A program made the position numbers and the translations under genes. From Candidatus Daviesbacteria bacterium (lineage in GTDB: Bacteria; Patescibacteriota; Microgenomatia; Daviesbacterales; UBA10151), in the NCBI GenBank assembly GCA_016176465.1, contig JACOXD010000005.1:3741-67740 (forward strand): a DNA stretch of 64,000 nucleotides, written 5' to 3'. Numbering within the stretch: position 1 is the first letter of the stretch; each line of letters starts with the position of its first letter. Shown here one piece after another: positions 3,662-64,000 of the stretch. Under the pieces are notes generated by a model. That model saw only the letters and a program-made list of their open reading frames with translations. It had not been told where the DNA came from and made no database searches.

Positions 3662-3730
3662 TGTCATTCTGAATGTAGTGAAGAATCTAGAGATCCTTCT
3701 CCCCTCCGGGGTCCCGCACTCAGGATGACA
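3662..3730. repeat. family-1 palindromic element, intergenic copy between thrS and infC
   Basis: TGTCATTCTGAATG…GAAGAATCTAGAGATCCTTC…CCCCTCCGGGG…CTCAGGATGACA. The termini are inverted repeats. See copies at 21141, 21902, 25105 and 63342. Confidence 0.8.
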
Positions 3731-7733: not shown

Positions 7734-9455
7734 ATGAAAGTATCTTTTAACTGGCTAAGAGAGTTTGTTGATTTAAATATTTCTAATGAGGAGTTAACTA
7801 AACTTCTACCTTTGCGGACTATTGGTGTTAAGGAAGTTACACAAGATTTTGTAGAGTTAGATATGAAGGGCTACAACAGAGCAGACCTCTTATCATTAAG
7901 GGGTGTTGCGTATGAGGTAGCTGCCATAACTGGTTCAAAGCTAAAGTTTATTGAGATAGACATCAGTGGGGACAAAATCATGCTCGAGCATAAAGATATC
8001 CTTGAATTTAGGACAAAAGTTGAGGATCCACAAAGGGCTCCTTTATATACCTTGGTAAAAATAGAAGGCTTAAGGGTAGGTAAGTCAACCGAAAGTTGGA
8101 TAAAAAAGTTAAAAGACTCAGGAATAAGGTCAATTAATAACATTGCAGATGTTACAAACTTAGTAATGGTGGAGTATGGTCAACCCATGCATGCTTTTGA
8201 TGGAGATAAGATAGATGAGGAGATAGTTGTCAGAATTGCCAACAAGGGGGAAAGGATAAAAACTTTAGATGGAAAAGAGAGAGTCTTAAGTTCTGAGGAC
8301 TTATTAATAACTGATCCACAAAGAGCTGTAGGAATTGCGGGGGTAATGGGAGGAGAAAATAGCGAAGTAACAGATTCAACAACTACTATTTTTTTAGAAG
8401 CAGCAATTTTTGACTCACAAACTATTAGGAAAACTTCAACCAGGCTAGGATTAGTTTCCGAGGCATCAAAAAGATTTGTTCATGGGTTAACCCAAAGAAG
8501 GTTATTCCAAGCTTTAGATGCTGCTATAAAAATGTATGAAGATTTGGGTGGGAAACTTAAAGCTATAACTATGGAGGGCACTACATTTGATCCAATAAAA
8601 AGGATTCCTTTAACTTTAGAGAAAGTAAGATCTTTAATAGGTGTTGAGATCTCTCCTAAAGACACTGAAAATTACTTAAAAAAACTAAACTTTAAACTTC
8701 AAAGAAGAGGTGTGAACGTAAATCACCCGGAGGGTGTAATTGATAATTGGGAAATTATCCCACCATATTTTAGATTAGATATAGAAATAGAAGAAGATGT
8801 AGTAGAGGAAGTTGCTAGGATGTACGGCTATGAAAAAATCCCATCACAAGAATTAAAGGGATCGCTACCCTCCAAAATTGACCAAACTCAGTTTGAATTA
8901 ATTTCTAAACTTAAAAAAACTTTAGTGGATTTAGGCTTAACTGAGGTTCAAACCTACTCTTTTTATTCAACTGATGTTTTAAGAAACTTAGGCTGGATGG
9001 ATCATCTTGATAAACTAATTAAAGTAGCTAACCCAATATCTTCTGAAACAGAGTTTTTAAGACAAAACATCTGGTCAAATCTTTTAGAAGTAGCTGCAAA
9101 GAATTCAAAAAGAGGCTTTAGGGATATAGTAATTTTTGAAGTGGGCAAAATCTATTGGATAAACCAAGAGGGAGAATATAATGAGAAATATTCTTTAGCA
9201 ATTTTACTGGTAAACAATACAGATAACCCTATCCAAGAATTGTATAATATCTTCCAAGGTGTAAAGCTATCACACCTCCGAGGTGTTAGTATGTTGAAGA
9301 TGGATAGACAAGCAAATTTCCATCCTACTCGTTTTGCTTTTTTGCAGAAAAATGATAAAACCACTGGTTTCTTAGCTGAGTTACACCCAAGAGTAGTTAA
9401 TAAGTTTGGGGTTGAGCAAAGAGTAGCAGCTTTAGAGATTGACATTAACCTATAA
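7734..9455 (+). CDS. pheT: phenylalanine--tRNA ligase beta subunit (short form, 573 aa)
   Basis: B3/B4 and B5 domain signatures (…IEEDVVEEVARMYGYEKIP…) directly downstream of pheS. Confidence 0.85.
   Translation: MKVSFNWLREFVDLNISNEELTKLLPLRTIGVKEVTQDFVELDMKGYNRADLLSLRGVAYEVAAITGSKLKFIEIDISGDKIMLEHKDILEFRTKVEDPQRAPLYTLVKIEGLRVGKSTESWIKKLKDSGIRSINNIADVTNLVMVEYGQPMHAFDGDKIDEEIVVRIANKGERIKTLDGKERVLSSEDLLITDPQRAVGIAGVMGGENSEVTDSTTTIFLEAAIFDSQTIRKTSTRLGLVSEASKRFVHGLTQRRLFQALDAAIKMYEDLGGKLKAITMEGTTFDPIKRIPLTLEKVRSLIGVEISPKDTENYLKKLNFKLQRRGVNVNHPEGVIDNWEIIPPYFRLDIEIEEDVVEEVARMYGYEKIPSQELKGSLPSKIDQTQFELISKLKKTLVDLGLTEVQTYSFYSTDVLRNLGWMDHLDKLIKVANPISSETEFLRQNIWSNLLEVAAKNSKRGFRDIVIFEVGKIYWINQEGEYNEKYSLAILLVNNTDNPIQELYNIFQGVKLSHLRGVSMLKMDRQANFHPTRFAFLQKNDKTTGFLAELHPRVVNKFGVEQRVAALEIDINL
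8715..8738. repeat. family-2 REP-like hairpin (AACGTAAATCACCCGGAGGGTGTA) inside the pheT coding sequence
   Basis: Shares the 16-nt core TCACCCGGAGGGTGTA, plus the flank, with the hairpins flanking the RayT-like gene at 33184-33199 and 33940-33955. Encodes …VNVNHPEGVIDN…, which is longer than the corresponding E. coli/B. subtilis loop. Confidence 0.6.
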
Positions 9456-9475: not shown

Positions 9476-10051
9476 ATGAGTGAAGTTTTACGAGAACTTG
9501 GACAAATTAGACCAGAAGATGTGCCGCCTGCAGCCCAAGGAGCAGTTGCTTCTTTATTACTTTTAAGAGGAGATGGGCCTGCCGATCCCACTACAGCCAT
9601 AAAAGATGCTCTTTTCCCTGGATGGCGACGCTACCAGGGACGCAAAGATCTTTCGCCGGATTTACTTCCAAGGTATCGAGTGTATTGTGACATACCACAA
9701 CAAGTCCATCTTGCAGAAGTACTAAAACCAAACATTGGTCACGTAGAAATAGTTCTTAAACAGCCACCTCAAGAAAGTGAGGCTCAAACAGTGCATCCTT
9801 CCATGGAAAGGTTGAGGAATATCACATCAAGTCATGGTGCAGAGCTAGCATTTGCTGGCTTTACAGCTGCTATATATGGTTCAGTACTGATCGTAAATAA
9901 TGCCTTTGCTGGCGCTATACTTCGCGGGTACATAACTCAGAACCCTGCAGTAATGAATGAGGCTATGCTTGAAAATTATATAGGATTGGGGTTAATTGCA
10001 GCTGGAGCAGCAACAGCGGCAATCATAGGTGCAGTTCAGAGTAGAAAATAG
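9476..10051 (+). CDS. hypothetical protein with a C-terminal double-TM anchor; GC-rich
   Basis: 191 aa. The soluble N-terminal part is followed by a hydrophobic tail (…GLGLIAAGAATAAIIGAV). G+C is visibly about 10 points above the flanking genes. Confidence 0.45.
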   Translation: MSEVLRELGQIRPEDVPPAAQGAVASLLLLRGDGPADPTTAIKDALFPGWRRYQGRKDLSPDLLPRYRVYCDIPQQVHLAEVLKPNIGHVEIVLKQPPQESEAQTVHPSMERLRNITSSHGAELAFAGFTAAIYGSVLIVNNAFAGAILRGYITQNPAVMNEAMLENYIGLGLIAAGAATAAIIGAVQSRK

Positions 10052-10108
10052 AGTAGCTGTTTTAGAAATATATTTAAAAACTTTTATGGGGGGCAAGGAC
10101 AACGGCCA

Positions 10109-10528
10109 TTACCTTCGTGGTGATCTACCTGTAGTAGTTTTCCTCGGGGGAGGTAAAATTGCATTTCTCATTTGCATTAAAGGTTTAAGATGAGTCTCAT
10201 CCTGGGTTGTTAGCCAATCAAAAACATCTGGATATTTCTTTTCAACCCAATTCATATATATACTAATTTTACTTAGAGCCTCTTTTAATGGCCTTCTTCC
10301 TGAAGCAGCCTGATGCATATATGTTTCAATTCTAGCTGGAACTCTAATCCAGGGATCTGTGATGTCTCTTTGGGTGACAACATCAAGGAGATCTCCGTAT
10401 GAGCGTACTCCAATTTTATATCTACTTCTGAAAGTCCGTATTGGTAACGAAGTATCTGATGTCTCTCCTGCCCCATTACCTAGTGATTCTGTTCTAGCTT
10501 CTGCTGCCTCTCTTGTCATATAGTACAT
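10109..10528 (-). CDS. hypothetical protein (139 aa), GC-rich, convergent with 9476..10051
   Basis: Protein-like composition. The nested ORF 10285..10476 is rejected as a shadow. Confidence 0.4.
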   Translation of the reverse strand: MYYMTREAAEARTESLGNGAGETSDTSLPIRTFRSRYKIGVRSYGDLLDVVTQRDITDPWIRVPARIETYMHQAASGRRPLKEALSKISIYMNWVEKKYPDVFDWLTTQDETHLKPLMQMRNAILPPPRKTTTGRSPRR

Positions 10529-16093: not shown

Positions 16094-16147
16094 ATTTATT
16101 TGCTATTATACAAGATTAAATAATCACTTCAAAATATTCATTAACAA

Positions 16148-16182
16148 TCCCTAGGTGTCTAGCTATTCCACCTCCCAGGTGG
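16148..16182. repeat. family-3 repeat TCCCTAGGTGTCTAGCTA…CCCAGGTGG (second copy at 46747)
   Basis: About 35 nt, roughly 85% identical to 46747-46782. Both copies lie just 3' of converging genes. Confidence 0.6.
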
Positions 16183-16245
16183 AAGAAGTGGAAGACATAT
16201 CAGTAATCTTGAGAAAGATGTTTTATTTGTAGTAACATTGCGCTT

Positions 16246-18095: not shown

Positions 18096-18146
18096 CCTAA
18101 ATCCTCAACTCCACCTATCATATAGAAAGCTTGTTCTAGTTTGAAG
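18096..18146. repeat. duplicated copy of the atpD 3' end (pseudo-terminus)
   Basis: 18098-18150 matches 19889-19941. 27/27 nt are identical (TAAATCCTCAACTCCACCTATCATATA) and about 45/51 overall. On the minus strand it reads …[18 protein letters not shown] versus the genuine atpD C-terminus …[19 protein letters not shown]. Confidence 0.75.
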
Positions 18147-18915: not shown

Positions 18916-22288
<3,373 letters not shown>

Positions 22289-25104: not shown

Positions 25105-25180
25105 TATGTCATTCTGAGCGTTAGCGAAGAATCTAAAGATTTAAAAATCGTGAGATCCTTCGGCTAGAGCCTCAGGATGA
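25105..25180. repeat. family-1 palindromic element, intergenic copy between atpE and atpF (within the operon transcript)
   Basis: TGTCATTCTGAGCGTTAGCGAAGAATCT…GAGATCCTTCGGCTAGAGCCTCAGGATGACA. Confidence 0.8.
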
Positions 25181-25194
25181 CAACGTGGGCCTAG

Positions 25195-29420: not shown

Positions 29421-31502
29421 ATGGATTTGAACTCTTCTTTATATAGCATCTTAGGTATTGGTGGAGCTTTTGCAAAAAAATTAGAAAAGTTGGAAATTTT
29501 TACTTTAAAGGATTTAATTTATCACTTTCCTTTTAGGTATGATGATTTTTCTAAGCAAACAAGCGCGCTGGATGCCCAAATAGGGGAAAAAGTAACTTTA
29601 ATGGGTGAGGTTTGGTCTATTAAAAATGTTTACACAAGATTTGGGAAAGTTTTAACTCAAGCAATCTTTAATGATGGTTCATCTCCCATAACTCTAACTT
29701 GGTTTAATCAATCCTGGCTTACCAAACAAATAAACTCAGGAGATAGGTTACAGGTTTCAGGGAAAATAAAAAAGTATAAAAATAAGTTATCAATTGTTGC
29801 ACCAGTTTGGGAAAAGATCGCATCTTTTGATGTGTCAAGCTATTCCACCTCCGATGTGTCAATTCAATCCTTGCACACTGGAAGGTTAGTCCCAGTTTAT
29901 CCGGAAACTTTTGGTTTAACTTCCAAATGGATTAGGACTAAAATTTCCAGAATTTTACCTATGTTTGTAGATTCAATCAAAGATCCACTTCCAGATGATG
30001 TAAAAAATAAGATGCTTACTTTAAATGAAGCTCTCTTAAAAATTCATTTCCCTGAAAATTGGGAAGATATAGATAAAGCAAGAGAAAGGTTAGGTTTTGA
30101 TGAGTTATTTTTTATACAACTTTTTACCCAAAAAATAAGAAGACAGTGGAAAAACAAAAGGCTAGTTTCTCCCTTAAAAATAAACATGGGAAAACTAAAA
30201 GAGTTAGTTGAAAGCCTTCCTTTCAAGCTAACCAGCGCCCAAGATAAAGTACTAAGAGAAATCATGGATGATTTAGAGCAAGCTTCCCCAATGAATAGAC
30301 TGTTACAAGGTGAGGTGGGTTCAGGAAAAACAGTGGTGGCAGCTATTATAAGTTATTTAGTCTTTCTCAATAACTTAAAAGTTTTATATATGGCCCCAAC
30401 AGAAATCTTGGCATTCCAGCACTTTGATACATTTCAAAGGTTATTGCAGCCATTTGGAGTAGAGGTGGGGATATATACTGGGTCAAGGAAATATACAAAG
30501 GGGAAAGGGAGAAACGTTAAGGGTAAAGACGAAAAACTTCACCCTGATATCATTATTGGAACCCATGCGCTACTTTCTGAAAAGTTATTAGCAGGTGATG
30601 TAGGTTTGGTAATAATTGATGAGCAGCAAAGATTTGGTGTGGAGCAAAGAAGTATTTTAAGATCCAAAGCTAAAGTTCCCCACTTTTTAACCATGACAGC
30701 TACTCCTATTCCTAGAACTGTTGCACTTACTCTTTATGGGGATTTGGATTTATCAATTATTTATGAAATGCCAAAGGGTAGAAAATTGGTTAAAACTTTT
30801 GTGGTTCCATCTAAAAAAAGAGCTGATGCATATAAGTTTATTGAGAAAAAGGTAATGATGGGGGATCAAGTCTATATCATTACTCCTTTAATTGAGCCGT
30901 CAGAAACCTTAACTACAGTTAAAGCTGCCAAGGAAGAATTTGAAAGGTTGAGTAAAAAAGTATTTGTTAATCTTAAACTGGGGTTACTGCATGGAAGATT
31001 AAAATCAAAAGAAAAAGAGGAGGTCTTAAATAAATTTAAAAGCAAAGATTTAGATATTTTGGTTTCAACATCTGTTGTAGAAGTAGGGGTAGATGTGCCA
31101 AACGCTACTATAATGGTAATTGAAGGTGCCGAGAGATTTGGACTGGCCCAGCTTCATCAGTTAAGAGGAAGAGTAGGCAGAGGGGAGAAAGAGTCATTTG
31201 CATTGCTTTTCCCGGGAATAGAGGAACCTAGTTTAGTTTCCAGGTTGAAAAATTTAGAAAAAAATTTTAATGGGTTAGAGCTAGCTGAACTAGATCTAAA
31301 AGTAAGAGGATCAGGTGAAATATTTGGAACCAAACAATCTGGTAGATTTAACTTAAAAATAGCTTCTTTAACAGATCTACCAACTTTAGAAAAAGCAAAA
31401 GAGGCAGCTCACTCAGTATTACAAGTTGACCCTACGCTTGACAAATACCCGCTCCTCAAGGCACAATTAGCAGATAATCAGGCTGCAATAATGCCAGATT
31501 GA
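29421..31502 (+). CDS. recG: ATP-dependent DNA helicase RecG
   Basis: Wedge/OB N-terminus, LQGEVGSGKTVVA (motif I) and DEQQRFGV (motif II). Confidence 0.85.
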   Translation: MDLNSSLYSILGIGGAFAKKLEKLEIFTLKDLIYHFPFRYDDFSKQTSALDAQIGEKVTLMGEVWSIKNVYTRFGKVLTQAIFNDGSSPITLTWFNQSWLTKQINSGDRLQVSGKIKKYKNKLSIVAPVWEKIASFDVSSYSTSDVSIQSLHTGRLVPVYPETFGLTSKWIRTKISRILPMFVDSIKDPLPDDVKNKMLTLNEALLKIHFPENWEDIDKARERLGFDELFFIQLFTQKIRRQWKNKRLVSPLKINMGKLKELVESLPFKLTSAQDKVLREIMDDLEQASPMNRLLQGEVGSGKTVVAAIISYLVFLNNLKVLYMAPTEILAFQHFDTFQRLLQPFGVEVGIYTGSRKYTKGKGRNVKGKDEKLHPDIIIGTHALLSEKLLAGDVGLVIIDEQQRFGVEQRSILRSKAKVPHFLTMTATPIPRTVALTLYGDLDLSIIYEMPKGRKLVKTFVVPSKKRADAYKFIEKKVMMGDQVYIITPLIEPSETLTTVKAAKEEFERLSKKVFVNLKLGLLHGRLKSKEKEEVLNKFKSKDLDILVSTSVVEVGVDVPNATIMVIEGAERFGLAQLHQLRGRVGRGEKESFALLFPGIEEPSLVSRLKNLEKNFNGLELAELDLKVRGSGEIFGTKQSGRFNLKIASLTDLPTLEKAKEAAHSVLQVDPTLDKYPLLKAQLADNQAAIMPD

Positions 31503-31618
31503 TTTTGGGGGTCCTGCCAGCTCGGTATCTCGTCGTACCTCCTCGCTTTGTAACAACTGCGCTGCGGGGGTGCGCCAAGACCTCTCCTCGCTGTCACCCT
31601 CCAAAAGGGAGTTTATTT
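31503..31618. other. GC-rich, structured non-coding segment upstream of rpmF
   Basis: About 65% G+C in a roughly 35% genome. Contains direct repeats CCTCCTCGCT / TCTCCTCGCTG and a GGGTG…CACCC hairpin. The ORF-track reading through it (MILGVLPARYLVVPPRF…) is not credible as protein. Confidence 0.4.
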
Positions 31619-31822
31619 ATGCCGCATGAACCAAAGAAAAGACATAGTAAAAGTGCAAAAAGGATTAGACGAGGATCTATAAGTTTAAAAGCCGCAAATA
31701 TAATTATTTGTGCTAACTGTAATGCCAAAACCCTAGCTCATATGGCTTGTAGAAGCTGTGGGTTTTACTCAGGCAAAGCTGTTACAAACTCCAAACAACA
31801 AGTAACTGTCACTAAAACTTAA
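31619..31822 (+). CDS. rpmF: 50S ribosomal protein L32
   Basis: MPHEPKKRHSKSAKRIRR… plus a CxxC…CxxC zinc ribbon. SD GGGAG lies 8 nt upstream. This is the internal Met of the longer ORF-track entry. Confidence 0.8.
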   Translation: MPHEPKKRHSKSAKRIRRGSISLKAANIIICANCNAKTLAHMACRSCGFYSGKAVTNSKQQVTVTKT

Positions 31823-31880
31823 TTTCCTCCCAACTTATAGTTTGACTTTCAATAATTATAGGAGTAAACTCCTCCGATCT

Positions 31881-33203
31881 ATGACAAAAGCACGTGTTGA
31901 ACCACGCATGGCAGCACATCTTGCTAAATTAGATAAATATAGGCAAGCACAATTAAGTAAGGATGATCAACGGAGTAATGAATCCTCAAAACGCAAACTA
32001 GCAGCCTTGCATGGCGCAGCAAGTGAAATAGAAAGATTTCTAAACAGCACTGGTGAATATCTCAGGAATGTTACTTCCAGAACAAGAAGAATGTTGAGTG
32101 AAGGATTGGGAGGTGAACCCCAATATTTTGGTTACGCCGAAGATACTTTTCCGATATCTTTAAAACCAGAAGCAACCAGATTATTAAAAAAAGCCATGCA
32201 AATAATGGATGAGAAAGGTTTTAGATTTGGACCAGCATTACTTACACCAAGAGAACATAAGGAGATAGGAAGCTCAGGTTATGGAGGAATTTTCTGGGAC
32301 TATGATCCGGATATGCCGGTTCCTTTGATACAAACTATTCTTGTTGCGGAAGGGAAAAAAGATGTTCCGGATAGTGCTGAGGTTTATACCCAAGATGAAA
32401 TAGATAGAGCCCGTCGCTTAACAGGCGAAACTGCACTTGATCCTCAAACAGGAAGAGTTACAAAACTTGTAGATTCTGAAGCAGCAAATGATTCATATTA
32501 TTTCCTTTCTCCTCAAAGACGTGAGGAGATTATGAGAGAAGAAGAGGATTTACTTACTTCCTTAGAACAACTGGCTAATACAGGATTTAGAAGACATCAT
32601 AAAGTTGCAACTTTATTAGCTGATTTAGAAGCTGTAGCCGAAGGCCAAATTACAACTCCTGGATTAAAAAGAAGGTTCAGAAGTGTTCTAAAAGAGGTTC
32701 CTTCACGCCACCCAATAAGTTTGGAAGGTTACGTACGTGATTTAAGAAAAATAGCTTTTGAAACAGGAAAATGGGATTTAATTTTAACACCTCAAGAAGT
32801 TTTGCTAAGGGCAGGAGGAAGGGTAGATCTCCTATATTTAACAAGACCTTATACTCCGCTAGCAATACAGGATGGAACACCAATTGCTGATATTGCAAAA
32901 ATAAGAAAAGGGGAAAGATCAATGGTAGTAAATACAGACTTAATGGATTATGAGATGCCTTTTGGATTTAGACTAGAAAGATTAGATGCAAAGGGTAATA
33001 CTGTACGAAGCCCTACATTTTTAAATCATAATGATGGAGTAACCCCTTTAACCGACAGAATTAAAGAGTTTTATGCAGGACAAGTTAATGTTCCTTTTGC
33101 AAGACCTGAAGACTGGCATTATGAAGGAAGAGATGATAAAAAAACCCACCCTTTAGAAAAATTAGCTCAGTCTATACTAAACTACACCCTCCGGGTGAGT
33201 TAG
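31881..33203 (+). CDS. hypothetical protein (about 440 aa), conspicuously GC-rich; probable ATG start at 31881 (the track starts at TTG 31842)
   Basis: Uniform protein-like composition with no recognised domain. The C-terminal codons …YTLRVS* are formed by the family-2 REP hairpin. Confidence 0.5.
   Translation: MTKARVEPRMAAHLAKLDKYRQAQLSKDDQRSNESSKRKLAALHGAASEIERFLNSTGEYLRNVTSRTRRMLSEGLGGEPQYFGYAEDTFPISLKPEATRLLKKAMQIMDEKGFRFGPALLTPREHKEIGSSGYGGIFWDYDPDMPVPLIQTILVAEGKKDVPDSAEVYTQDEIDRARRLTGETALDPQTGRVTKLVDSEAANDSYYFLSPQRREEIMREEEDLLTSLEQLANTGFRRHHKVATLLADLEAVAEGQITTPGLKRRFRSVLKEVPSRHPISLEGYVRDLRKIAFETGKWDLILTPQEVLLRAGGRVDLLYLTRPYTPLAIQDGTPIADIAKIRKGERSMVVNTDLMDYEMPFGFRLERLDAKGNTVRSPTFLNHNDGVTPLTDRIKEFYAGQVNVPFARPEDWHYEGRDDKKTHPLEKLAQSILNYTLRVS
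33184..33199. repeat. family-2 REP-like hairpin (TACACCCTCCGGGTGA), left flank of the RayT-like gene, inverted relative to the right flank
   Basis: Reverse complement equals the TCACCCGGAGGGTGTA core. Confidence 0.65.
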
Positions 33204-33247
33204 CTTCACATCTTTTCTTTTAAATTTCATTTTGTTACTCTGTTGTT

Positions 33248-33919
33248 GTGGCAACTAAGAGAAAAATAGTTTTTATTAACAATGGTTTCTATCATGTTTT
33301 CAACAGGGGAATAGAGAAAAGACCAATATTTACTAATCAATGGGAATTAAAAAGAGCCGAAGAGCTAATGAAATTTTACCAATATCAAAATACACCCATT
33401 AGATTCTCTCAGTTTAACCTTCTTTCAAAAGAAAGGCAGCAAGAAATTTGGGAAATTATTTCTACAAGCAAAAAATTAATTGAAATAATCTGTTTCTGCT
33501 TCATGCCCAATCATTTTCACTTTTTATTAAAACAATTAGAAGATAAAGGTGTCGCTACCTTTATAGCAAATTTTACAAATGCTTATACCAAATATTTTAA
33601 TACTAGATACCAAAGAATAGGTCCTTTATTTGAAGGAGTGTTCAAAGCAGTATATGTAGAAACTGATGAGCAACTAATTCACCTTTCTCGATATATCCAC
33701 CTTAACCCAGTCTCATCGAGTCTAATTGAAACTAGTAAGCTCGAAAACTATGTTTGGTCTTCCTATCCCAACTATTTAACTAACAAAAATGATAATATTA
33801 TTGAAAGAAAACTTATCTTAAGCTTCTTTAAATCTGTGGCTGAATATAAACGATTTGTTCTTGACCAAGCCAGTTATGCTAGAGAATTAAATAAAATTAA
33901 GCATAAAATACTAGAATAG
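33248..33919 (+). mobile_element. IS200-like / REP-associated tyrosine transposase (RayT-like, HUH Y1 family)
   Basis: GFYHVFNRG, the HUH motif MPNHFHFLL, and the catalytic Tyr in RYIHLNP. It is flanked by inverted copies of a GC-rich hairpin rather than by IS200/605 ends plus tnpB. Confidence 0.7.
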
Positions 33920-33939
33920 AGAAGACGTGTAAACGTATT

Positions 33940-33955
33940 TCACCCGGAGGGTGTA
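33940..33955. repeat. family-2 REP-like hairpin (TCACCCGGAGGGTGTA), right flank of the RayT-like gene
   Basis: Identical core to the pheT copy; the flank AACGTATT matches AACGTAAA. Confidence 0.65.
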
Positions 33956-33963
33956 AAGGATAA

Positions 33964-34413: not shown

Positions 34414-34478
34414 ACTGGACAATTTTGCAATGCTGACTGTACTAAAAACGAAAGTTACGTCAAAATTTGTCCAAAAAA
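34414..34478. repeat. family-4 palindromic upstream element, copy A (ACTGGACAATTTTGCA…GTCAAAATTTGTCCAAAAAAA) abutting a start codon
   Basis: About 80% identical to 35974-36039. The termini are inverted repeats (TGGACAATTTTG / CAAAATTTGTCCA). Confidence 0.65.
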
Positions 34479-34715
34479 ATGAACACTCAAAAAGAAGTCA
34501 TTGCTGCTATTGCCAAACATTTAGCTGTAACTCCTGCTGATATAGACATTAGTGCTTCTTTGGCCGAGGATTTAGGTTTAGGTCCATTGGAAAAAGCTGA
34601 TTTACTTTCCAACCTATCTTCACAATTTAAAGTGACATTTGATCCGCTTGAGGTAGAAAATATTGAGACAGTACATGACATTGTTGTAATGATTGAAGAT
34701 TTATTGATCGAGTAA
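34479..34715 (+). CDS. acyl-carrier-protein-like (PP-binding fold) protein lacking the phosphopantetheine Ser
   Basis: …EDLGLGPLEKADLL… aligns with the ACP DLGADSLDTVEL motif, with the Ser replaced by Pro. The ATG at 34479 is preferred over the TTG at 34467. Confidence 0.4.
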   Translation: MNTQKEVIAAIAKHLAVTPADIDISASLAEDLGLGPLEKADLLSNLSSQFKVTFDPLEVENIETVHDIVVMIEDLLIE

Positions 34716-35973: not shown

Positions 35974-36039
35974 ACTGGACGATTTTGCAGATTCGACTAT
36001 TTAAACTGAAAAAGTTAAGTCAAAATCTGTCCAAAAAAA
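35974..36039. repeat. family-4 palindromic upstream element, copy B
   Basis: ACTGGACGATTTTGCAG…AAGTTAAGTCAAAATCTGTCCAAAAAAAA, ending at the ATG of the KH-domain gene. Confidence 0.65.
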
Positions 36040-46229: not shown

Positions 46230-46753
46230 GTGGACAAGATAGAGATTATTAAACTCAATCCCAATCGGTGGGAAGAATATAAAGAGTTGCGATTACAGGC
46301 TCTAAAAGAAAATCCGGAAGCTTTTGGGTCAACTTATGAAGAAGCTGCAGATAAACCAGATAAGGAATGGAAATCCCGACTTGAGAAGGTACAGAAATTA
46401 AAGAATTATTGGATGTTTTTGCAAAATTAAGTGGGGAGTTAATAGGGTTGTTAGGCACCAGAGAAACTAATCCTCCGGATACTTTGCCTACTATAAAAAT
46501 AAGTGGAGTTTATATTGCCTCGAAGGCAAGAGGGAGAGGAATTGGTAAAAAACTTATGCTTCATTTATTAAAAGAAGTAGTAAGAAACCCTAGATGGAAA
46601 AAAGTTAAAATAAAAGTTTTCCCTACTCAAGAAATAGCAATTAATTTATACAAAAGCCTGGGGTTTGAAGTTATAGAAAAAGTTACTGAAGATTTTCCAA
46701 GCGGAATAAAAAGAGAGACTTTTGTAATGGAAAAATCCTTAATAAATCCCTAG
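46230..46753 (+). pseudogene. GNAT N-acetyltransferase split by a frameshift near a T5 run (about 46416-46420)
   Basis: ORF 46230..46430 carries the GNAT N-terminal region; ORF 46409..46753 in the +1 frame carries motif A (RGRGIGKKLM) and the C-terminus. Confidence 0.5.
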
Positions 46754-46782
46754 GTGTCTAGCTAGTCAACCCCCCCAGGTTG
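46747..46782. repeat. family-3 repeat, copy 2
   Basis: TCCCTAGGTGTCTAGCTAGTCAACCCCCCCAGGTTG. See 16148. Confidence 0.6.
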
Positions 46783-46812
46783 AATTTCGGTGTATACAGG
46801 ATTGTATAGGAA

Positions 46813-63153: not shown

Positions 63154-64000
63154 ATGACATTTATGAATCAAAAAGTACATTTTTTAGGAATTGCTGGTTC
63201 AGGAGCATCCGCAGTTGCTGCCATTGCTAAATCATGGGGATTTGAAATAACAGGTTGTGATTTAAATCCTTTTAATGAATTTACCTCTCAGTTTGAAAAA
63301 GAAATTTTAATGGAAGGGCATTCAAAAAACCACCTTTACACTCATCCTGAAGCGCGGGCCCCTCTAGGGAGGAAGGATCTAGAGGAGTTAGATTCTTCTC
63401 AGGCTTCGCCTAATCAGAATGACAGTTTAGTTGACCTCTTAGTAATTACCCCAGCAATCTTATCCCTAGATCCTAGTAATGAAGAGTTAAAAGAAGCTAA
63501 AGATAAAGGAGTCCCAGTTTTAACTTGGCAAGAGTTTTTAGGTAAAAATTTACTTAAAGATAAATTTGTTATAGCAGTTTGTGGGACTCATGGTAAAACA
63601 ACCACTACTGCTTTGATCGGATCTTTACTTGAGGATGCGGGGCTAGATCCTACAGTAGAACTTGGTTCTATTTTTCCTAAATGGGGGAAAAACTTTAGAG
63701 TTGGAAAATCAAAATATTTTGTGCTAGAAGCTGATGAGTTTAATGATAATTTTTTAAGTTACCCAACAGATATTGCAATTGTTACTAATATTGATTTTGA
63801 CCATCCAGAATTTTTTAAAGACTTAAATGCTTACAGAAAAAGTTTTATAAAGTTTTTATCACAGGTAAAAAAATTAATTATTGCTAATCTTTCTGATCTT
63901 GGAGTGTACGAGATTTTAGGTTTACACCTCGAAGGTGGGAAGCAAGAACAAAATGACATATTTAATCTTATAAAGGTAATTGATTATTCAGCTACAAAAA
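63154..64000 (+). CDS. murC: UDP-N-acetylmuramate--L-alanine ligase (5' part; runs off the window) carrying an in-frame family-1 element insertion
   Basis: Not in the ORF track because it has no stop. MTFMNQKVHFLGIAGSGASAVAA… and …VCGTHGKTTTTALIG… It contains a GC-rich block of about 28 aa (THPEARAPLGRKDLEELDSSQASPNQND). Confidence 0.75.
   Translation, partial: MTFMNQKVHFLGIAGSGASAVAAIAKSWGFEITGCDLNPFNEFTSQFEKEILMEGHSKNHLYTHPEARAPLGRKDLEELDSSQASPNQNDSLVDLLVITPAILSLDPSNEELKEAKDKGVPVLTWQEFLGKNLLKDKFVIAVCGTHGKTTTTALIGSLLEDAGLDPTVELGSIFPKWGKNFRVGKSKYFVLEADEFNDNFLSYPTDIAIVTNIDFDHPEFFKDLNAYRKSFIKFLSQVKKLIIANLSDLGVYEILGLHLEGGKQEQNDIFNLIKVIDYSATK
63342..63424. repeat. family-1 palindromic element inserted in frame in murC
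   Basis: TCATCCTGAAGCGCGGGCCCCTCTAGGGAGGAAGGATCTAGAGGAGTTAGATTCTTCTCAGGCTTCGCCTAATCAGAATGACA. Confidence 0.75.

What the first reader, a model, noticed from the sequence alone, without database searches (positions are those of the whole stretch)
33184..33955. RayT-like HUH transposase flanked by inverted GC-rich hairpins, with a third hairpin copy inside pheT
ORF 33248..33919 has the hallmarks of IS200-like / REP-associated tyrosine transposases (HUH motif HFHFL, catalytic Tyr in RYIHLNP). There is no tnpB and no IS ends. Instead it is bracketed by TACACCCTCCGGGTGA (33184-33199) and its reverse complement TCACCCGGAGGGTGTA (33940-33955). That is the REP-RAYT arrangement. The left hairpin forms the last codons of the neighbouring GC-rich gene. 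The same 16-nt core plus a flanking AACGTAAA occurs at 8715-8738 inside pheT, where the B5-domain loop is about 7 residues longer than in E. coli or B. subtilis. The family-1 elements contain related CCCCTCCGGGG / GCCCCTCTAGGG hairpins, so this enzyme is the prime candidate mobiliser of the in-frame elements.
Basis: partly seen in the sequence, partly recalled or inferred. Interest (0 to 1): 0.65.

Follow-up and report, generated by a model that had tools for sequence, protein, structure and literature searches.

The report
RAYT-like nuclease with its dispersed hairpin repeats
A candidate-phylum (Daviesbacteria) genome carries a single-strand-DNA "HUH/tyrosine" nuclease gene bracketed by inverted copies of a ~40-base hairpin repeat, and five more copies lie elsewhere in the window, three of them in frame inside essential genes; this is a new example of the known REP/RAYT and TIR/TIRYT kind of system.

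Summary
ORF 33248-33919 encodes a 223-aa Y1 HUH enzyme with an NHFH motif and catalytic Tyr149 in RYIHLNP. It is bracketed by inverted repeats. The exact 16-mer lies at 33183-33198 (+) and 33940-33955 (-), with a third copy at 8723-8738 inside pheT.

A covariance model finds exactly seven copies in the window: the two gene flanks, two in pheT, one in recG and two intergenic.

The protein is not an IS200 TnpA. Its best structural match is E. coli RAYT (4ER8). All 32 aligned homologues hit NCBIfam REP_Tyr_transpos, all below cutoff. Its motifs fit TnpAY1 subclass 2.1, the TIRYT group.

In most of 78 related Patescibacteria loci, lineage-specific palindromes bracket the gene. In 11 loci a copy also sits in frame inside the gene itself.

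The pheT and recG copies are in-frame insertions in variable loops. They are absent from many orthologues and use different reading frames.

The proposed link to the "family-1" repeats is not supported.

Verdict: a new member of a known kind, of moderate interest.

The parts
33248..33919 (+). Y1 HUH single-strand-DNA nuclease/transposase gene (223 aa). It is RAYT/TIRYT-like, with HUH = H89-F-H91 and catalytic Y149.
   Evidence: Pfam Y1_Tnp E=1.8e-8. NCBIfam REP_Tyr_transpos 39 bits, below the cutoff of 80. AF2 model pLDDT 88. Best PDB fold match is 4ER8, E. coli RAYT, E=7e-6. Invariant residues.
33176..33223 (-). Left flanking repeat, with the hairpin on the outer side and GGTGT-type foot plus AAGCTA on the inner side. 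It overlaps the last codons and the stop of ORF 31842..33203. Its inner end reads TTCACA, a -35-like hexamer, towards the gene.
   Evidence: I4; 48.3 bits, E=4.6e-11. DNA fold -5.5 kcal/mol, z=-2.7.
33915..33962 (+). Right flanking repeat. It starts 0-7 nt after the stop codon and ends just before the nusB ribosome-binding site.
   Evidence: I4, D7; 47 bits, E=1e-10. DNA fold -7.4 kcal/mol, z=-3.5.
8698..8745 (+). In-frame copy in pheT, in a B5-domain loop. It encodes ..QRRGVNVNHPEGV.. .
   Evidence: 51.7 bits. Ortholog alignment. An orthologous copy is present in the sister species (L005).
9247..9294 (+). Second in-frame copy in pheT. It encodes ..QGVKLSHLRGV.. and belongs to a different hairpin subfamily (ACACC TCCGA GGTGT).
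   Evidence: (47.8 bits). It is 92% nt-identical, with 100% third-position identity, to the L005 copy, against 69% for the whole gene.
29820..29867 (+). In-frame copy in recG. It encodes ..DVSSYSTSDVS.. in a different reading frame from the pheT copies.
   Evidence: (37 bits). The insertion is absent from the recG of L018 and L024 and present at the same site in L046.
16143..16190 (+). Intergenic copy between divergent genes (an atpC-like gene on - and ORF 16246.. on +).
   Evidence: D2/D3; 47.8 bits. A weak promoter-like site, TAGACA-17-AATATT, lies on the - strand.
46742..46789 (+). Copy abutting the stop codon of ORF 46409..46753. The stop TAG lies in the CCCTAG just 5' of GTGTC. The stem shows a compensatory variant, CAACC/GGTTG.
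   Evidence: D2/D3; 36.4 bits.

Best explanation
This is a REPtron/TIRtron-type unit in a Candidatus Daviesbacteria (Patescibacteria/CPR) genome.

The parts:
- A single-copy Y1 HUH enzyme of the RAYT/TIRYT lineage. Its motif set fits TnpAY1 class 2, subclass 2.1.
- Two inverted copies of its cognate ~40-nt repeat, which bracket the gene: AAAGArrr-GGTGT-nAAGCTAnnn-[CACC(C)-loop-(G)GGTG].
- A sparse family of the same repeat scattered in the genome.

Proposed mechanism, by homology with E. coli TnpA-REP and IS608/ISDra2 TnpA:
1. The enzyme binds the small hairpin when the DNA is single-stranded, for example at replication forks.
2. It reads the conserved linear 5' motif.
3. It cleaves and rejoins through a Tyr149 phosphotyrosine intermediate with HUH-bound metal.
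4. This copies or moves the ~40-nt units.

In this gene-dense genome, survivors lie at gene ends or, when the length keeps the frame, inside tolerant surface loops of essential proteins (pheT twice, recG; MurT in a relative). The inner end of the left repeat probably doubles as the -35 box of the gene's own promoter.

Shown:
- The fold and motifs of the enzyme.
- The conserved bracketing by lineage-specific palindromes.
- Stem covariation.
- Dispersal of the repeat.
- In-frame presence/absence polymorphism among orthologues.

Inferred:
- Cleavage chemistry.
- That this enzyme, rather than a paralog, moves these copies.
- Current activity.
- Promoter use.
For: Enzyme:
- Pfam Y1_Tnp hit.
- All 32 aligned homologues hit NCBIfam REP_Tyr_transpos (best 1.2e-15). 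Only 1 of 32 hits IS200, at E=0.024.
- The top Foldseek hit is 4ER8 (RAYT bound to a REP hairpin), E=7e-6 over 198 columns, ahead of ISDra2/IS608 TnpA at E>=5.8e-4.
- The motifs NHFH, LFEG/LFQG, YIHLNP and WSS match Table 1, subclass 2.1, of PMC6006769.

Layout:
- Inverted 30-44-nt repeats of the same design bracket the gene in L001, L002 and L004, at 60-74% aa identity and in three different contexts.
- Across the fetched loci, about 45 have flanking palindromes or inverted repeats scoring well above their shuffles, typically 10-40 nt upstream and 0-20 nt downstream.

Hairpin:
- 86.8% of cells are paired and 4 of 6 pairs show compensatory changes. 0 of 500 shuffles reach this.

Dispersal:
- There are 7 copies in 64 kb and nothing else scores.
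- There are 48 hits in 1.1 Mb of related loci.
- A metagenome scan found 25 loci, 24 with the full unit and only 3 next to Y1 genes.

Insertion nature:
- Both pheT sites are in length-variable loops.
- 11 of 121 orthologues carry the motif at site 1 and 14 of 121 at site 2, in a patchy pattern. For example, P0156 has it while its 80%-identical neighbour P0183 lacks it.
- The recG insertion is absent from L018 and L024.
- Three different reading frames are used.

Promoter:
- TTGACA-17-TAnnnT ends 5-9 nt before the start codon in 22 of 78 loci, against 3.1 expected.
Against: - No biochemical or population evidence of mobility exists.
- Only 5 non-flank copies were seen in 64 kb, and a whole-genome census could not be run.
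- The hairpins are weak: 5-6 bp stems, -4 to -7 kcal/mol, some with z-scores no better than shuffles.
- The canonical REP 5' GT[AG]G tag is absent.
- The protein scores below the NCBIfam RAYT cutoff (39 against 80 bits).
- Subclass 2.1 was reported as not REP-associated (PMC6006769).
- The pheT copies are orthologous in the sister species and one is unusually conserved. This fits ancient, fixed, possibly functional sequence as well as it fits mobility.
- Related genomes hold several divergent Y1 paralogs, so the cognate enzyme for each repeat subfamily is not proven.
- The promoter-like site in the window itself is weak.
Confidence: 0.75

Rival explanations
1. The unit is an autonomous, TIR-bounded, IS-like element (a 'TIRtron'). 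On this view the repeat-gene-repeat unit is what moves. The scattered ~40-nt copies are then solo ends, or MITE-like remnants left by excision, rather than independently mobilised REPs.
For: - The asymmetric part of the repeat (GGTGT-AAGCTA) is truly inverted around the gene, as terminal inverted repeats are.
- The gene sits in different contexts in L002 and L004.
- It sits at different positions and orientations within the same recG-L32-nusB-rnc-S16-KH-trmD cluster in L001, L009, L018 and L074.
- Bertels' Group 1 (= subclass 2.1) is the most IS-like RAYT group.
Against: - There is only one copy in the window.
- Paralogs within a genome are 35-45% identical rather than near-identical.
- Homologue clusters are almost all seen on a single contig.
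- The position is conserved between the window and the 74%-identical L001.
- Solo copies greatly outnumber gene copies.
- Some are complete 'double-foot' palindromes that are not IS ends (L005:2114-2175, -14.5 kcal/mol).
Confidence: 0.12
2. The repeats are host-selected functional motifs: promoter -35 modules, protein-binding sites or RNA hairpins. On this view the Y1 gene is regulated by them, or processes them for a host function, and mobility is not the point.
For: - The inner end of the repeat reads TTGACA, and promoter-like geometry is enriched upstream of the Y1 genes.
- The pheT copies persist at orthologous sites in a species with 66% aa identity, at 82-92% nt identity. Site 2 has 100% third-position identity, placing it in the top 2% of windows.
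- The same sites are occupied in several divergent orthologues.
Against: - Presence is patchy among close orthologues.
- Copies occur in three reading frames and in unrelated genes.
- The palindrome sequence changes with the Y1 lineage.
- Copies sit inside the Y1 gene itself.
- There is no Rfam family and no terminator-like tail.
- The promoter-like signal in the window is at chance level.
Confidence: 0.1
3. It is a canonical IS200/IS605 insertion sequence whose flanking hairpins are ordinary left and right IS ends.
For: The Pfam family name is 'Transposase IS200 like'. There are weak profile hits to ISDra2 TnpA (E=0.013).
Against: - The Y motif is Y---NP (class 2), not Y---Q.
- NCBIfam transpos_IS200 is hit by only 1 of 32 members, at E=0.024.
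- There is no tnpB.
- The ends are inverted, not in direct orientation on one strand.
- It is single-copy.
- The protein is 223 aa with extra N- and C-terminal parts, against about 150 aa.
Confidence: 0.02

Closest known systems
E. coli TnpA-REP / RAYT (YafM, PDB 4ER8) with REP/BIME sequences (TnpAY1 subclass 2.2)
   Same: - It shares the HUH + single-Tyr fold and is the best structural match.
- It has the Y---NP motif.
- The gene is bracketed by inverted copies of a hairpin repeat that is also dispersed in the genome.
- It is single-copy and has no tnpB.
   Different: - Sequence identity is only about 14%, and the NCBIfam score is 39 against a cutoff of 80.
- The protein is 223 aa against 165 aa, with an extra helical C-terminal part.
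- The repeat lacks the GT[AG]G tag and instead has GGTGT + AAGCTA 5' of a 5-6-bp stem.
- Copy density is low, about 1 per 9-13 kb in this window.
- The host is a CPR bacterium.
TIRYT / 'TIRtron' (Di Nocera et al. 2013, PMC3733652) = TnpAY1 subclass 2.1 (Quentin et al. 2018, PMC6006769) = Bertels Group 1
   Same: - The motif set matches: NH[YF]H, FQ, Y[IV]HLNP and the SS motif. The length is about 238 aa.
- The gene is flanked by long terminal inverted repeats, some self-complementary.
- Moderately abundant repeat families occur in some genomes.
- The inner TIR motif GGTGTCAA matches the published GGGGWSAS consensus at 6 of 8 positions (by eye).
- Several divergent paralogs occur per genome.
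   Different: - Subclass 2.1 was reported without REP-like hairpins near the gene. Here a hairpin with covariation is part of every flank.
- No Bac_DnaA_C or HTH Pfam hit was found in the C-terminus.
- Membership in subclass 2.1 rests on motifs, not on a phylogeny.
- The searched literature does not describe this for CPR.
TnpAY1 subclass 2.4 RAYTs (Cyanobacteria/Bacteroidetes) with 'double-foot' REPs and REPs inserted in frame inside the tnpA-REP gene
   Same: - Relatives of this gene carry their own flanking palindrome in frame inside the gene, in 11 loci and two loops.
- Some dispersed copies are double-foot long palindromes (L005:2114-2175).
   Different: - The motifs differ: subclass 2.4 has WQ and YIxNNP.
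- The window gene itself has no internal copy.
[quoted passage not shown]
IS200/IS605 TnpA (IS608, ISDra2)
   Same: It shares the catalytic fold and the likely chemistry on single-stranded hairpin DNA.
   Different: - IS200/IS605 TnpA has the Y---Q motif.
- It is about 150 aa.
- Its end hairpins are in direct orientation.
- It is often paired with tnpB.
- It is multi-copy and near-identical.
- None of these apply here.
Intragenic REPs and Rickettsia palindromic elements (in-frame insertions in protein genes)
   Same: Short palindromic repeats are inserted in frame in loops of housekeeping proteins. PMC3733652 reports such insertions in tRNA synthetases and in repair and helicase genes. Here the genes are pheT, recG and MurT.
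   Different: - The element here is shorter, at about 30-42 nt against about 100-150 nt for RPEs (my own knowledge).
- A candidate cognate enzyme is encoded next to two copies.
- In this small sample a large share of copies is intragenic: 3 of the 5 non-flank copies in the window.

Membership tests
RAYT (REP-associated tyrosine transposase; TnpAY1 class 2) | HUH motif plus a single catalytic Tyr in the Y1 transposase fold | tested here: met
   Pfam Y1_Tnp hit. H89, H91 and Y149 are invariant. The fold matches 4ER8, 2XO6 and 2A6M.
RAYT (REP-associated tyrosine transposase; TnpAY1 class 2) | Y motif Y---NP (class 2) rather than Y---Q (IS200) | tested here: met
   RYIHLNP, with Y149, N153 and P154 invariant. 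The criterion comes from PMC6006769.
RAYT (REP-associated tyrosine transposase; TnpAY1 class 2) | Passes the curated family model (NCBIfam NF047646 REP_Tyr_transpos, cutoff 80 bits) | tested here: not met
   It scores 39.3 bits. All 32 homologues hit the model but stay below the cutoff.
RAYT (REP-associated tyrosine transposase; TnpAY1 class 2) | Gene flanked by inverted copies of a hairpin repeat (REPtron layout) | tested here: met
   Window arms of 36 nt, 78% complementary. The same layout holds in L001, L002 and L004 and in most of the 78 loci.
RAYT (REP-associated tyrosine transposase; TnpAY1 class 2) | The same repeat dispersed in many copies in the genome | tested here: inconclusive
   Five further copies occur in 64 kb. 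Extras occur in related loci. A metagenome scan found 24 real loci. A whole-genome count was not obtainable.
RAYT (REP-associated tyrosine transposase; TnpAY1 class 2) | Canonical REP with a 5' GT[AG]G tetranucleotide at the foot of the hairpin | tested here: not met
   The consensus is ..GGTGTnAAGCTAnnn-CACC..GGTG, with no GTAG or GTGG at the stem foot.
RAYT (REP-associated tyrosine transposase; TnpAY1 class 2) | Single or low copy, not near-identical duplicates | tested here: met
   There is one copy in the window. Paralogs in related genomes are divergent, at 35-45% identity.
TIRYT / TnpAY1 subclass 2.1 | Motif set NH[YF]H, FQ, Y[IV]HLNP and a proximal SS motif, with length about 238 aa | tested here: met
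   NHFH, LFEG (family consensus LFQG), YIHLNP, W170-S171-S172, 223 aa, compared with Table 1.
TIRYT / TnpAY1 subclass 2.1 | Long terminal inverted repeats flanking the gene, with consensus GGGGWSAS | tested here: inconclusive
   TIRs are present. The inner motif GGTGTCAA fits 6 of 8 positions of the consensus. No alignment to published TIRs was possible.
TIRYT / TnpAY1 subclass 2.1 | C-terminal HTH-like domain (Bac_DnaA_C, HTH_23 or HTH_28) | tested here: inconclusive
   No Pfam hit at E<=0.01. The model shows a helical C-terminal part at residues 153-222. It was not compared with HTH folds.
TIRYT / TnpAY1 subclass 2.1 | Clusters with subclass 2.1 in a phylogeny or MCL network | not tested
IS200/IS605 TnpA | Y---Q motif, about 150 aa core only, passing the IS200 family model | tested here: not met
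   YIHLNP, 223 aa. NCBIfam transpos_IS200 is hit by 1 of 32 members at E=0.024.
IS200/IS605 TnpA | Subterminal hairpins in the same orientation on one strand, often with tnpB, and multi-copy | tested here: not met
   The ends are inverted. The neighbours are orf453 and nusB. There is a single copy.

The most novel reading that the evidence does not exclude
The repeats may not be merely selfish. On this reading Patescibacteria carry a phylum-wide, domesticated Y1 nuclease family whose cognate palindromes are kept under DNA-level selection. Three observations bear on it:
- The palindromes sit at orthologous loops inside essential genes (pheT, recG, murT).
- They sit inside the nuclease gene itself.
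- They occur at gene ends, where their inner arm supplies a TTGACA -35 box.

That would make a host-integrated REP-like system that seeds promoters or marks single-stranded DNA in some of the smallest bacterial genomes.
Probability: 0.15. Interest if true: 0.7.

Novelty: new member of a known kind. Interest (0 to 1): 0.42.

Why it matters
- It extends REP/RAYT-type (TIRYT-type) systems to the Candidate Phyla Radiation. None is described there in the literature I could search.
- Proteins with the subclass 2.1 motif set had been reported as not REP-associated. Here they are consistently bracketed by lineage-specific hairpins.
- In ultra-compact genomes these repeats persist largely as in-frame inserts in loops of essential proteins. 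That explains some of the odd loop insertions in CPR housekeeping genes.
- The repeat gives a marker for annotation: spurious ORF tails, stop codons donated by repeats, and a leaderless-type promoter.
- The chemistry and the general phenomenon are already known from Proteobacteria, Cyanobacteria and Rickettsia, so the advance is incremental.

Tried and rejected
- A single-sequence PDB search gave no relevant hit. A profile search gave only weak ISDra2 hits. Fold comparison was needed.
- Rfam at gathering threshold found only two tRNAs in the window, so the repeat is no known RNA family.
- I considered that the window's own Y1 gene holds an internal repeat copy, because 33666-33683 is a 3-mismatch match to a loose pattern. 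I rejected this as chance: the covariance model does not score it, and it encodes the conserved DEQLIHLSRY helix.
- The promoter and terminator scan around the gene was at chance level in the window, with no terminator-like site. The promoter idea rests on relatives.
- Phage and plasmid collections hold only distant relatives, at 25-37% identity.
- The GC-rich 115-nt insert upstream of L32 is not significantly structured and is unrelated to the repeat.
- A per-genome census was not possible.
Full report
**1. What is in the sequence**

The window is about 35% GC. It comes from a Candidatus Daviesbacteria (Patescibacteria/CPR) genome. The protein of ORF 33248..33919 is identical to an NCBI entry named transposase [Candidatus Daviesbacteria bacterium].

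The ORF starts with GTG, encodes 223 aa, and carries PNHFHFLL and RYIHLNP.

The 16-mer TACACCCTCCGGGTGA occurs exactly three times: 33183-33198 (+), 33940-33955 (-) and 8723-8738 (-). Even allowing up to 3 mismatches, shuffles give 0.08 matches. This includes the point that the left copy supplies the last codons (NYTLRVS) and the TAG stop of ORF 31842..33203.

**2. The repeat is longer and more numerous than reported**

The flanking arms are complementary over 36 nt (33183-33218 against 33920-33955, 78%). The pheT copy matches them over 47-48 nt at 83-85%.

A looser pattern found four more copies. Aligned with copies from relatives, the consensus is nnnAAAGAnnAGGTGTnAAGCTAnTTCACCCGGAGGGTGT (alignment A2).

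The unit has four parts:
- a purine-rich 5' extension;
- a GGTGT 'foot';
- AAGCTA;
- a 5-6-bp hairpin, CACC(C)-loop-(G)GGTG.

The hairpin is supported by covariation (ACACC/GGTGT, CCACC/GGTGG, CAACC/GGTTG). 86.8% of cells are paired, and 4 of 6 pairs have changes on both sides. 0 of 500 shuffles reach this, and slid controls give 32-59% paired.

A covariance model (R1), run with filters off, finds exactly seven members in the window and nothing else of note:
- 33176-33223 (-) and 33915-33962 (+), flanking the gene;
- 8698-8745 and 9247-9294, in pheT;
- 29820-29867, in recG;
- 16143-16190, intergenic;
- 46742-46789, abutting a stop codon.

As single-stranded DNA the hairpins are modest, at -4 to -7 kcal/mol. 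Some copies in a relative are long 'double-foot' palindromes (L005:2114-2175, -14.5 kcal/mol, z=-6.2). No Rfam family matches.

**3. What the protein is**

- Pfam: Y1_Tnp, E=1.8e-8.
- NCBIfam: only REP_Tyr_transpos, at 39 bits against a cutoff of 80.
- All 32 aligned homologues hit REP_Tyr_transpos (best 1.2e-15). One hits IS200, at E=0.024.
- The AlphaFold model from a 32-sequence alignment has pLDDT 88.4.
- Its best PDB match is 4ER8, the E. coli REP-associated tyrosine transposase bound to a REP hairpin (E=7e-6, 198 aligned columns). ISDra2 and IS608 TnpA follow at E>=5.8e-4.

The motif set is NHFH, LFEG (family consensus LFQG), YIHLNP and W170-S171-S172, at 223 aa. It corresponds to TnpAY1 class 2, subclass 2.1, in Quentin et al. 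2018 (PMC6006769, Table 1). That is Bertels' Group 1. The same paper equates it with the TIRYTs of Di Nocera et al. 2013 (PMC3733652).

It is not an IS200/IS605 TnpA:
- the Y motif is Y---NP, not Y---Q;
- there is no tnpB;
- the ends are inverted rather than direct;
- it is the only copy in the window.

**4. The bracketing is a property of the family**

The family is large, with 5731 clusters, nearly all 223-225 aa. A genome scan found 571 relatives, almost all in Patescibacteria MAGs, often with several divergent paralogs per genome.

In L001 (74% identity) the gene has the same recG-L32-Y1-nusB-rnc-S16 synteny as the window. In L002 and L004 (60-61% identity) the contexts are unrelated. In all three, 30-44-nt inverted repeats of the same design bracket the gene.

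Of the fetched loci, about 45 have flanking palindromes or inverted repeats scoring clearly above their own shuffles. These typically lie 10-40 nt before the start and 0-20 nt after the stop. Their sequence changes from lineage to lineage.

In 11 loci the same palindrome also sits in frame inside the Y1 gene, in two variable loops. This behaviour was previously described for subclass 2.4.

The gene occupies different positions and orientations within the same conserved gene cluster in L001, L009, L018 and L074.

**5. Dispersal**

- In 1.1 Mb of related loci the model finds 48 hits. These are the gene flanks plus extra copies, for example L001:7169, five in L005, three in L023 and L046:696.
- A scan of JGI metagenomes with AASSTANNNCACCCGGAGGGTGT returned 25 loci. 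24 carry the whole unit including the AAAGAA..GGTG extension. Only 3 are next to a Y1 gene, and most are intergenic.

So the 16-mer family is present well beyond the gene. A per-genome count could not be made.

**6. The intragenic copies are in-frame insertions**

*pheT.* The window gene was aligned with 120 orthologues.
- Both pheT sites are length-variable loops.
- The element-type peptide (G[VA][KN][LV]xH[LP]xG) occurs in 11 of 121 sequences at site 1 and 14 of 121 at site 2.
- The distribution is patchy. P0156 has it while its 80%-identical neighbour P0183 lacks about 20 residues there.
- The peptide variants GVKL and GANV correspond to the DNA variants GTAAAGCTA and GCGAACGTA seen next to Y1 genes.

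*recG.* The insert is absent from the recG of L018 and L024. It is present at the same site in L046.

*Other genes.* A relative has a copy in MurT.

*Frame and strand.* Three reading frames are used: GVKLxH in pheT and MurT, VSSY in recG, and RCQANPPGGC in L095. So this is a nucleotide element, not a protein motif. All intragenic copies lie on the coding strand.

*Conservation.* In the sister species (L005; PheT 66% aa and 69% nt identity) both pheT copies are at the orthologous sites. They are 82% and 92% nt-identical to the window copies. Site 2 has 100% third-position identity, in the top 2% of 12-codon windows. These copies are therefore old, and they are either constrained at the DNA level or homogenised.

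**7. Mechanism**

By homology with 4ER8 and the IS608/ISDra2 TnpA structures, the enzyme should work as follows:
- recognise the hairpin on single-stranded DNA together with a nearby linear motif;
- cut and rejoin through Tyr149 with HUH-bound metal.

This step is inferred, not shown.

The reverse complement of the repeat's inner end is TAGCTTGACACC. TTGACA-17-TAnnnT, ending 5-9 nt before the start codon, occurs in 22 of 78 loci against 3.1 expected. This suggests that the left repeat carries the -35 box of a near-leaderless promoter. In the window itself the match is weak (TTCACA / CATTTT), and the scan there is at chance level.

**8. The 'family-1' claim**

The family-1 repeats lie at 3663-3729, 21141-21199, 21905-21969, 25108-25181 and 63341-63423. 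They are a different long palindrome with conserved GTCATTCTGAG / GAAGAATCT / AGATCCTTC / CTCAGGATGAC blocks.
- CCCTCCGGG appears in the variable loop of only one of them.
- R1 does not hit them.
- In related loci only 3 of 46 motif hits are near Y1 genes.

Nothing ties them to this enzyme.

**9. Comparison and novelty**

The system works like a REPtron (RAYT + REP). Its motifs match the TIRYT/subclass 2.1 group.

It fails two RAYT criteria: the curated model cutoff and the GT[AG]G-tagged REP. It meets the structural, motif and layout criteria.

In-frame intragenic REPs, including in tRNA synthetases and repair helicases, are already documented (PMC3733652). REPs inside the transposase gene are also documented (PMC6006769).

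Searches of the paper library found no description of such systems in CPR/Patescibacteria.

I therefore class it as a new member of a known kind. It carries one useful correction: proteins with the subclass 2.1 motif set can be consistently hairpin-associated.

**10. Limits**

- No mobility or biochemistry has been shown.
- No whole-genome census was possible.
- No phylogeny against reference subclasses was built.
- With several paralogs per genome, the assignment of each repeat subfamily to an enzyme is unproven.

Noticed in passing
window 3663-3729, 21141-21199, 21905-21969, 25108-25181, 63341-63423: These are the 'family-1' long palindromic repeats (GTCATTCTGAG .. GAAGAATCT .. AGATCCTTC .. 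CTCAGGATGAC with variable inner hairpins). The same end motif occurs 46 times in the related Patescibacteria loci. Their mobiliser, if any, is unknown and is not the Y1 gene studied here.
   Followed up: partly
window 31503-31618: A GC-rich (58-63%) ~115-nt segment lies between the recG stop and the probable L32 start (ATG near 31620). It is absent from the syntenic site in L001, where L32 follows recG after 8 nt. It makes the mechanical L32 ORF look N-terminally extended. Its predicted fold is no better than shuffles (z=-0.9).
   Followed up: partly
window 31842-33203: A 453-aa ORF sits between L32 and the Y1 gene. It has no Pfam or NCBIfam hit and is absent from the syntenic locus L001. It belongs to a rare family with 40 representatives among 1.84 billion. 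Homologues end at about residues 428-439, so its C-terminal tail and stop codon come from the left repeat.
   Followed up: partly
L034, L044, L045, L052, L055, L067, L068, L074, L076, L080, L083 (inside the Y1 genes): In 11 related loci the palindrome that flanks the Y1 gene is also present in frame inside the gene, either near residues 51-65 or just after the catalytic Y motif. This was previously reported only for TnpAY1 subclass 2.4.
   Followed up: yes
78 Y1 loci, 110 nt upstream of the start codon (e.g. L002:5960-5992): TTGACA-17-TAnnnT ends 5-9 nt before the start codon in 22 of 78 loci, against 3.1 expected. This implies a near-leaderless transcript whose -35 box lies in the left repeat.
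   Followed up: partly
L005:14390-15088: A second, divergent Y1 paralog (232 aa, 39% identity to the family profile) lies in the sister genome near pheT. It has a tandem duplication (NAFLL..NAFLL) right after YIHRN and lacks the NP of the Y motif. It is preceded by a different palindrome (TTCCCACTTGACGAGTGGGAA).
   Followed up: partly
L001:955-986: There is a tandem duplication of 16 nt (GATTCCCTAACACCCT x2) that includes the outer half of the left hairpin of the Y1 flank.
   Followed up: no
window 34451-34479 and 36011-36039: A 29-nt direct repeat (AAAGTTAnGTCAAAATnTGTCCAAAAAAA, 93% identical) lies immediately upstream of two gene starts, the ACP-like ORF and the KH-domain ORF. It may be a shared leader or promoter motif.
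   Followed up: no
window 18098-18137 and 19890-19929: A 40-nt direct repeat, 95% identical, with copies 1.8 kb apart. Its nature is unknown.
   Followed up: no
window 9476-10051 (+) and 10109-10528 (-): Two ORFs with locally raised GC (islands at 9571-9640 and 10091-10150) and Ala/Pro/Arg-rich products lie directly after pheT. They were not examined.
   Followed up: no
loci L007, L008, L011, L014, L025 and others: Many record titles read 'uncultured Gammaproteobacteria bacterium (binchicken ...)', yet the contigs carry Patescibacteria-type genes. For example, L025 is from the same assembly as L001 and L005, which has Daviesbacteria-like synteny. The labels look unreliable.
   Followed up: no
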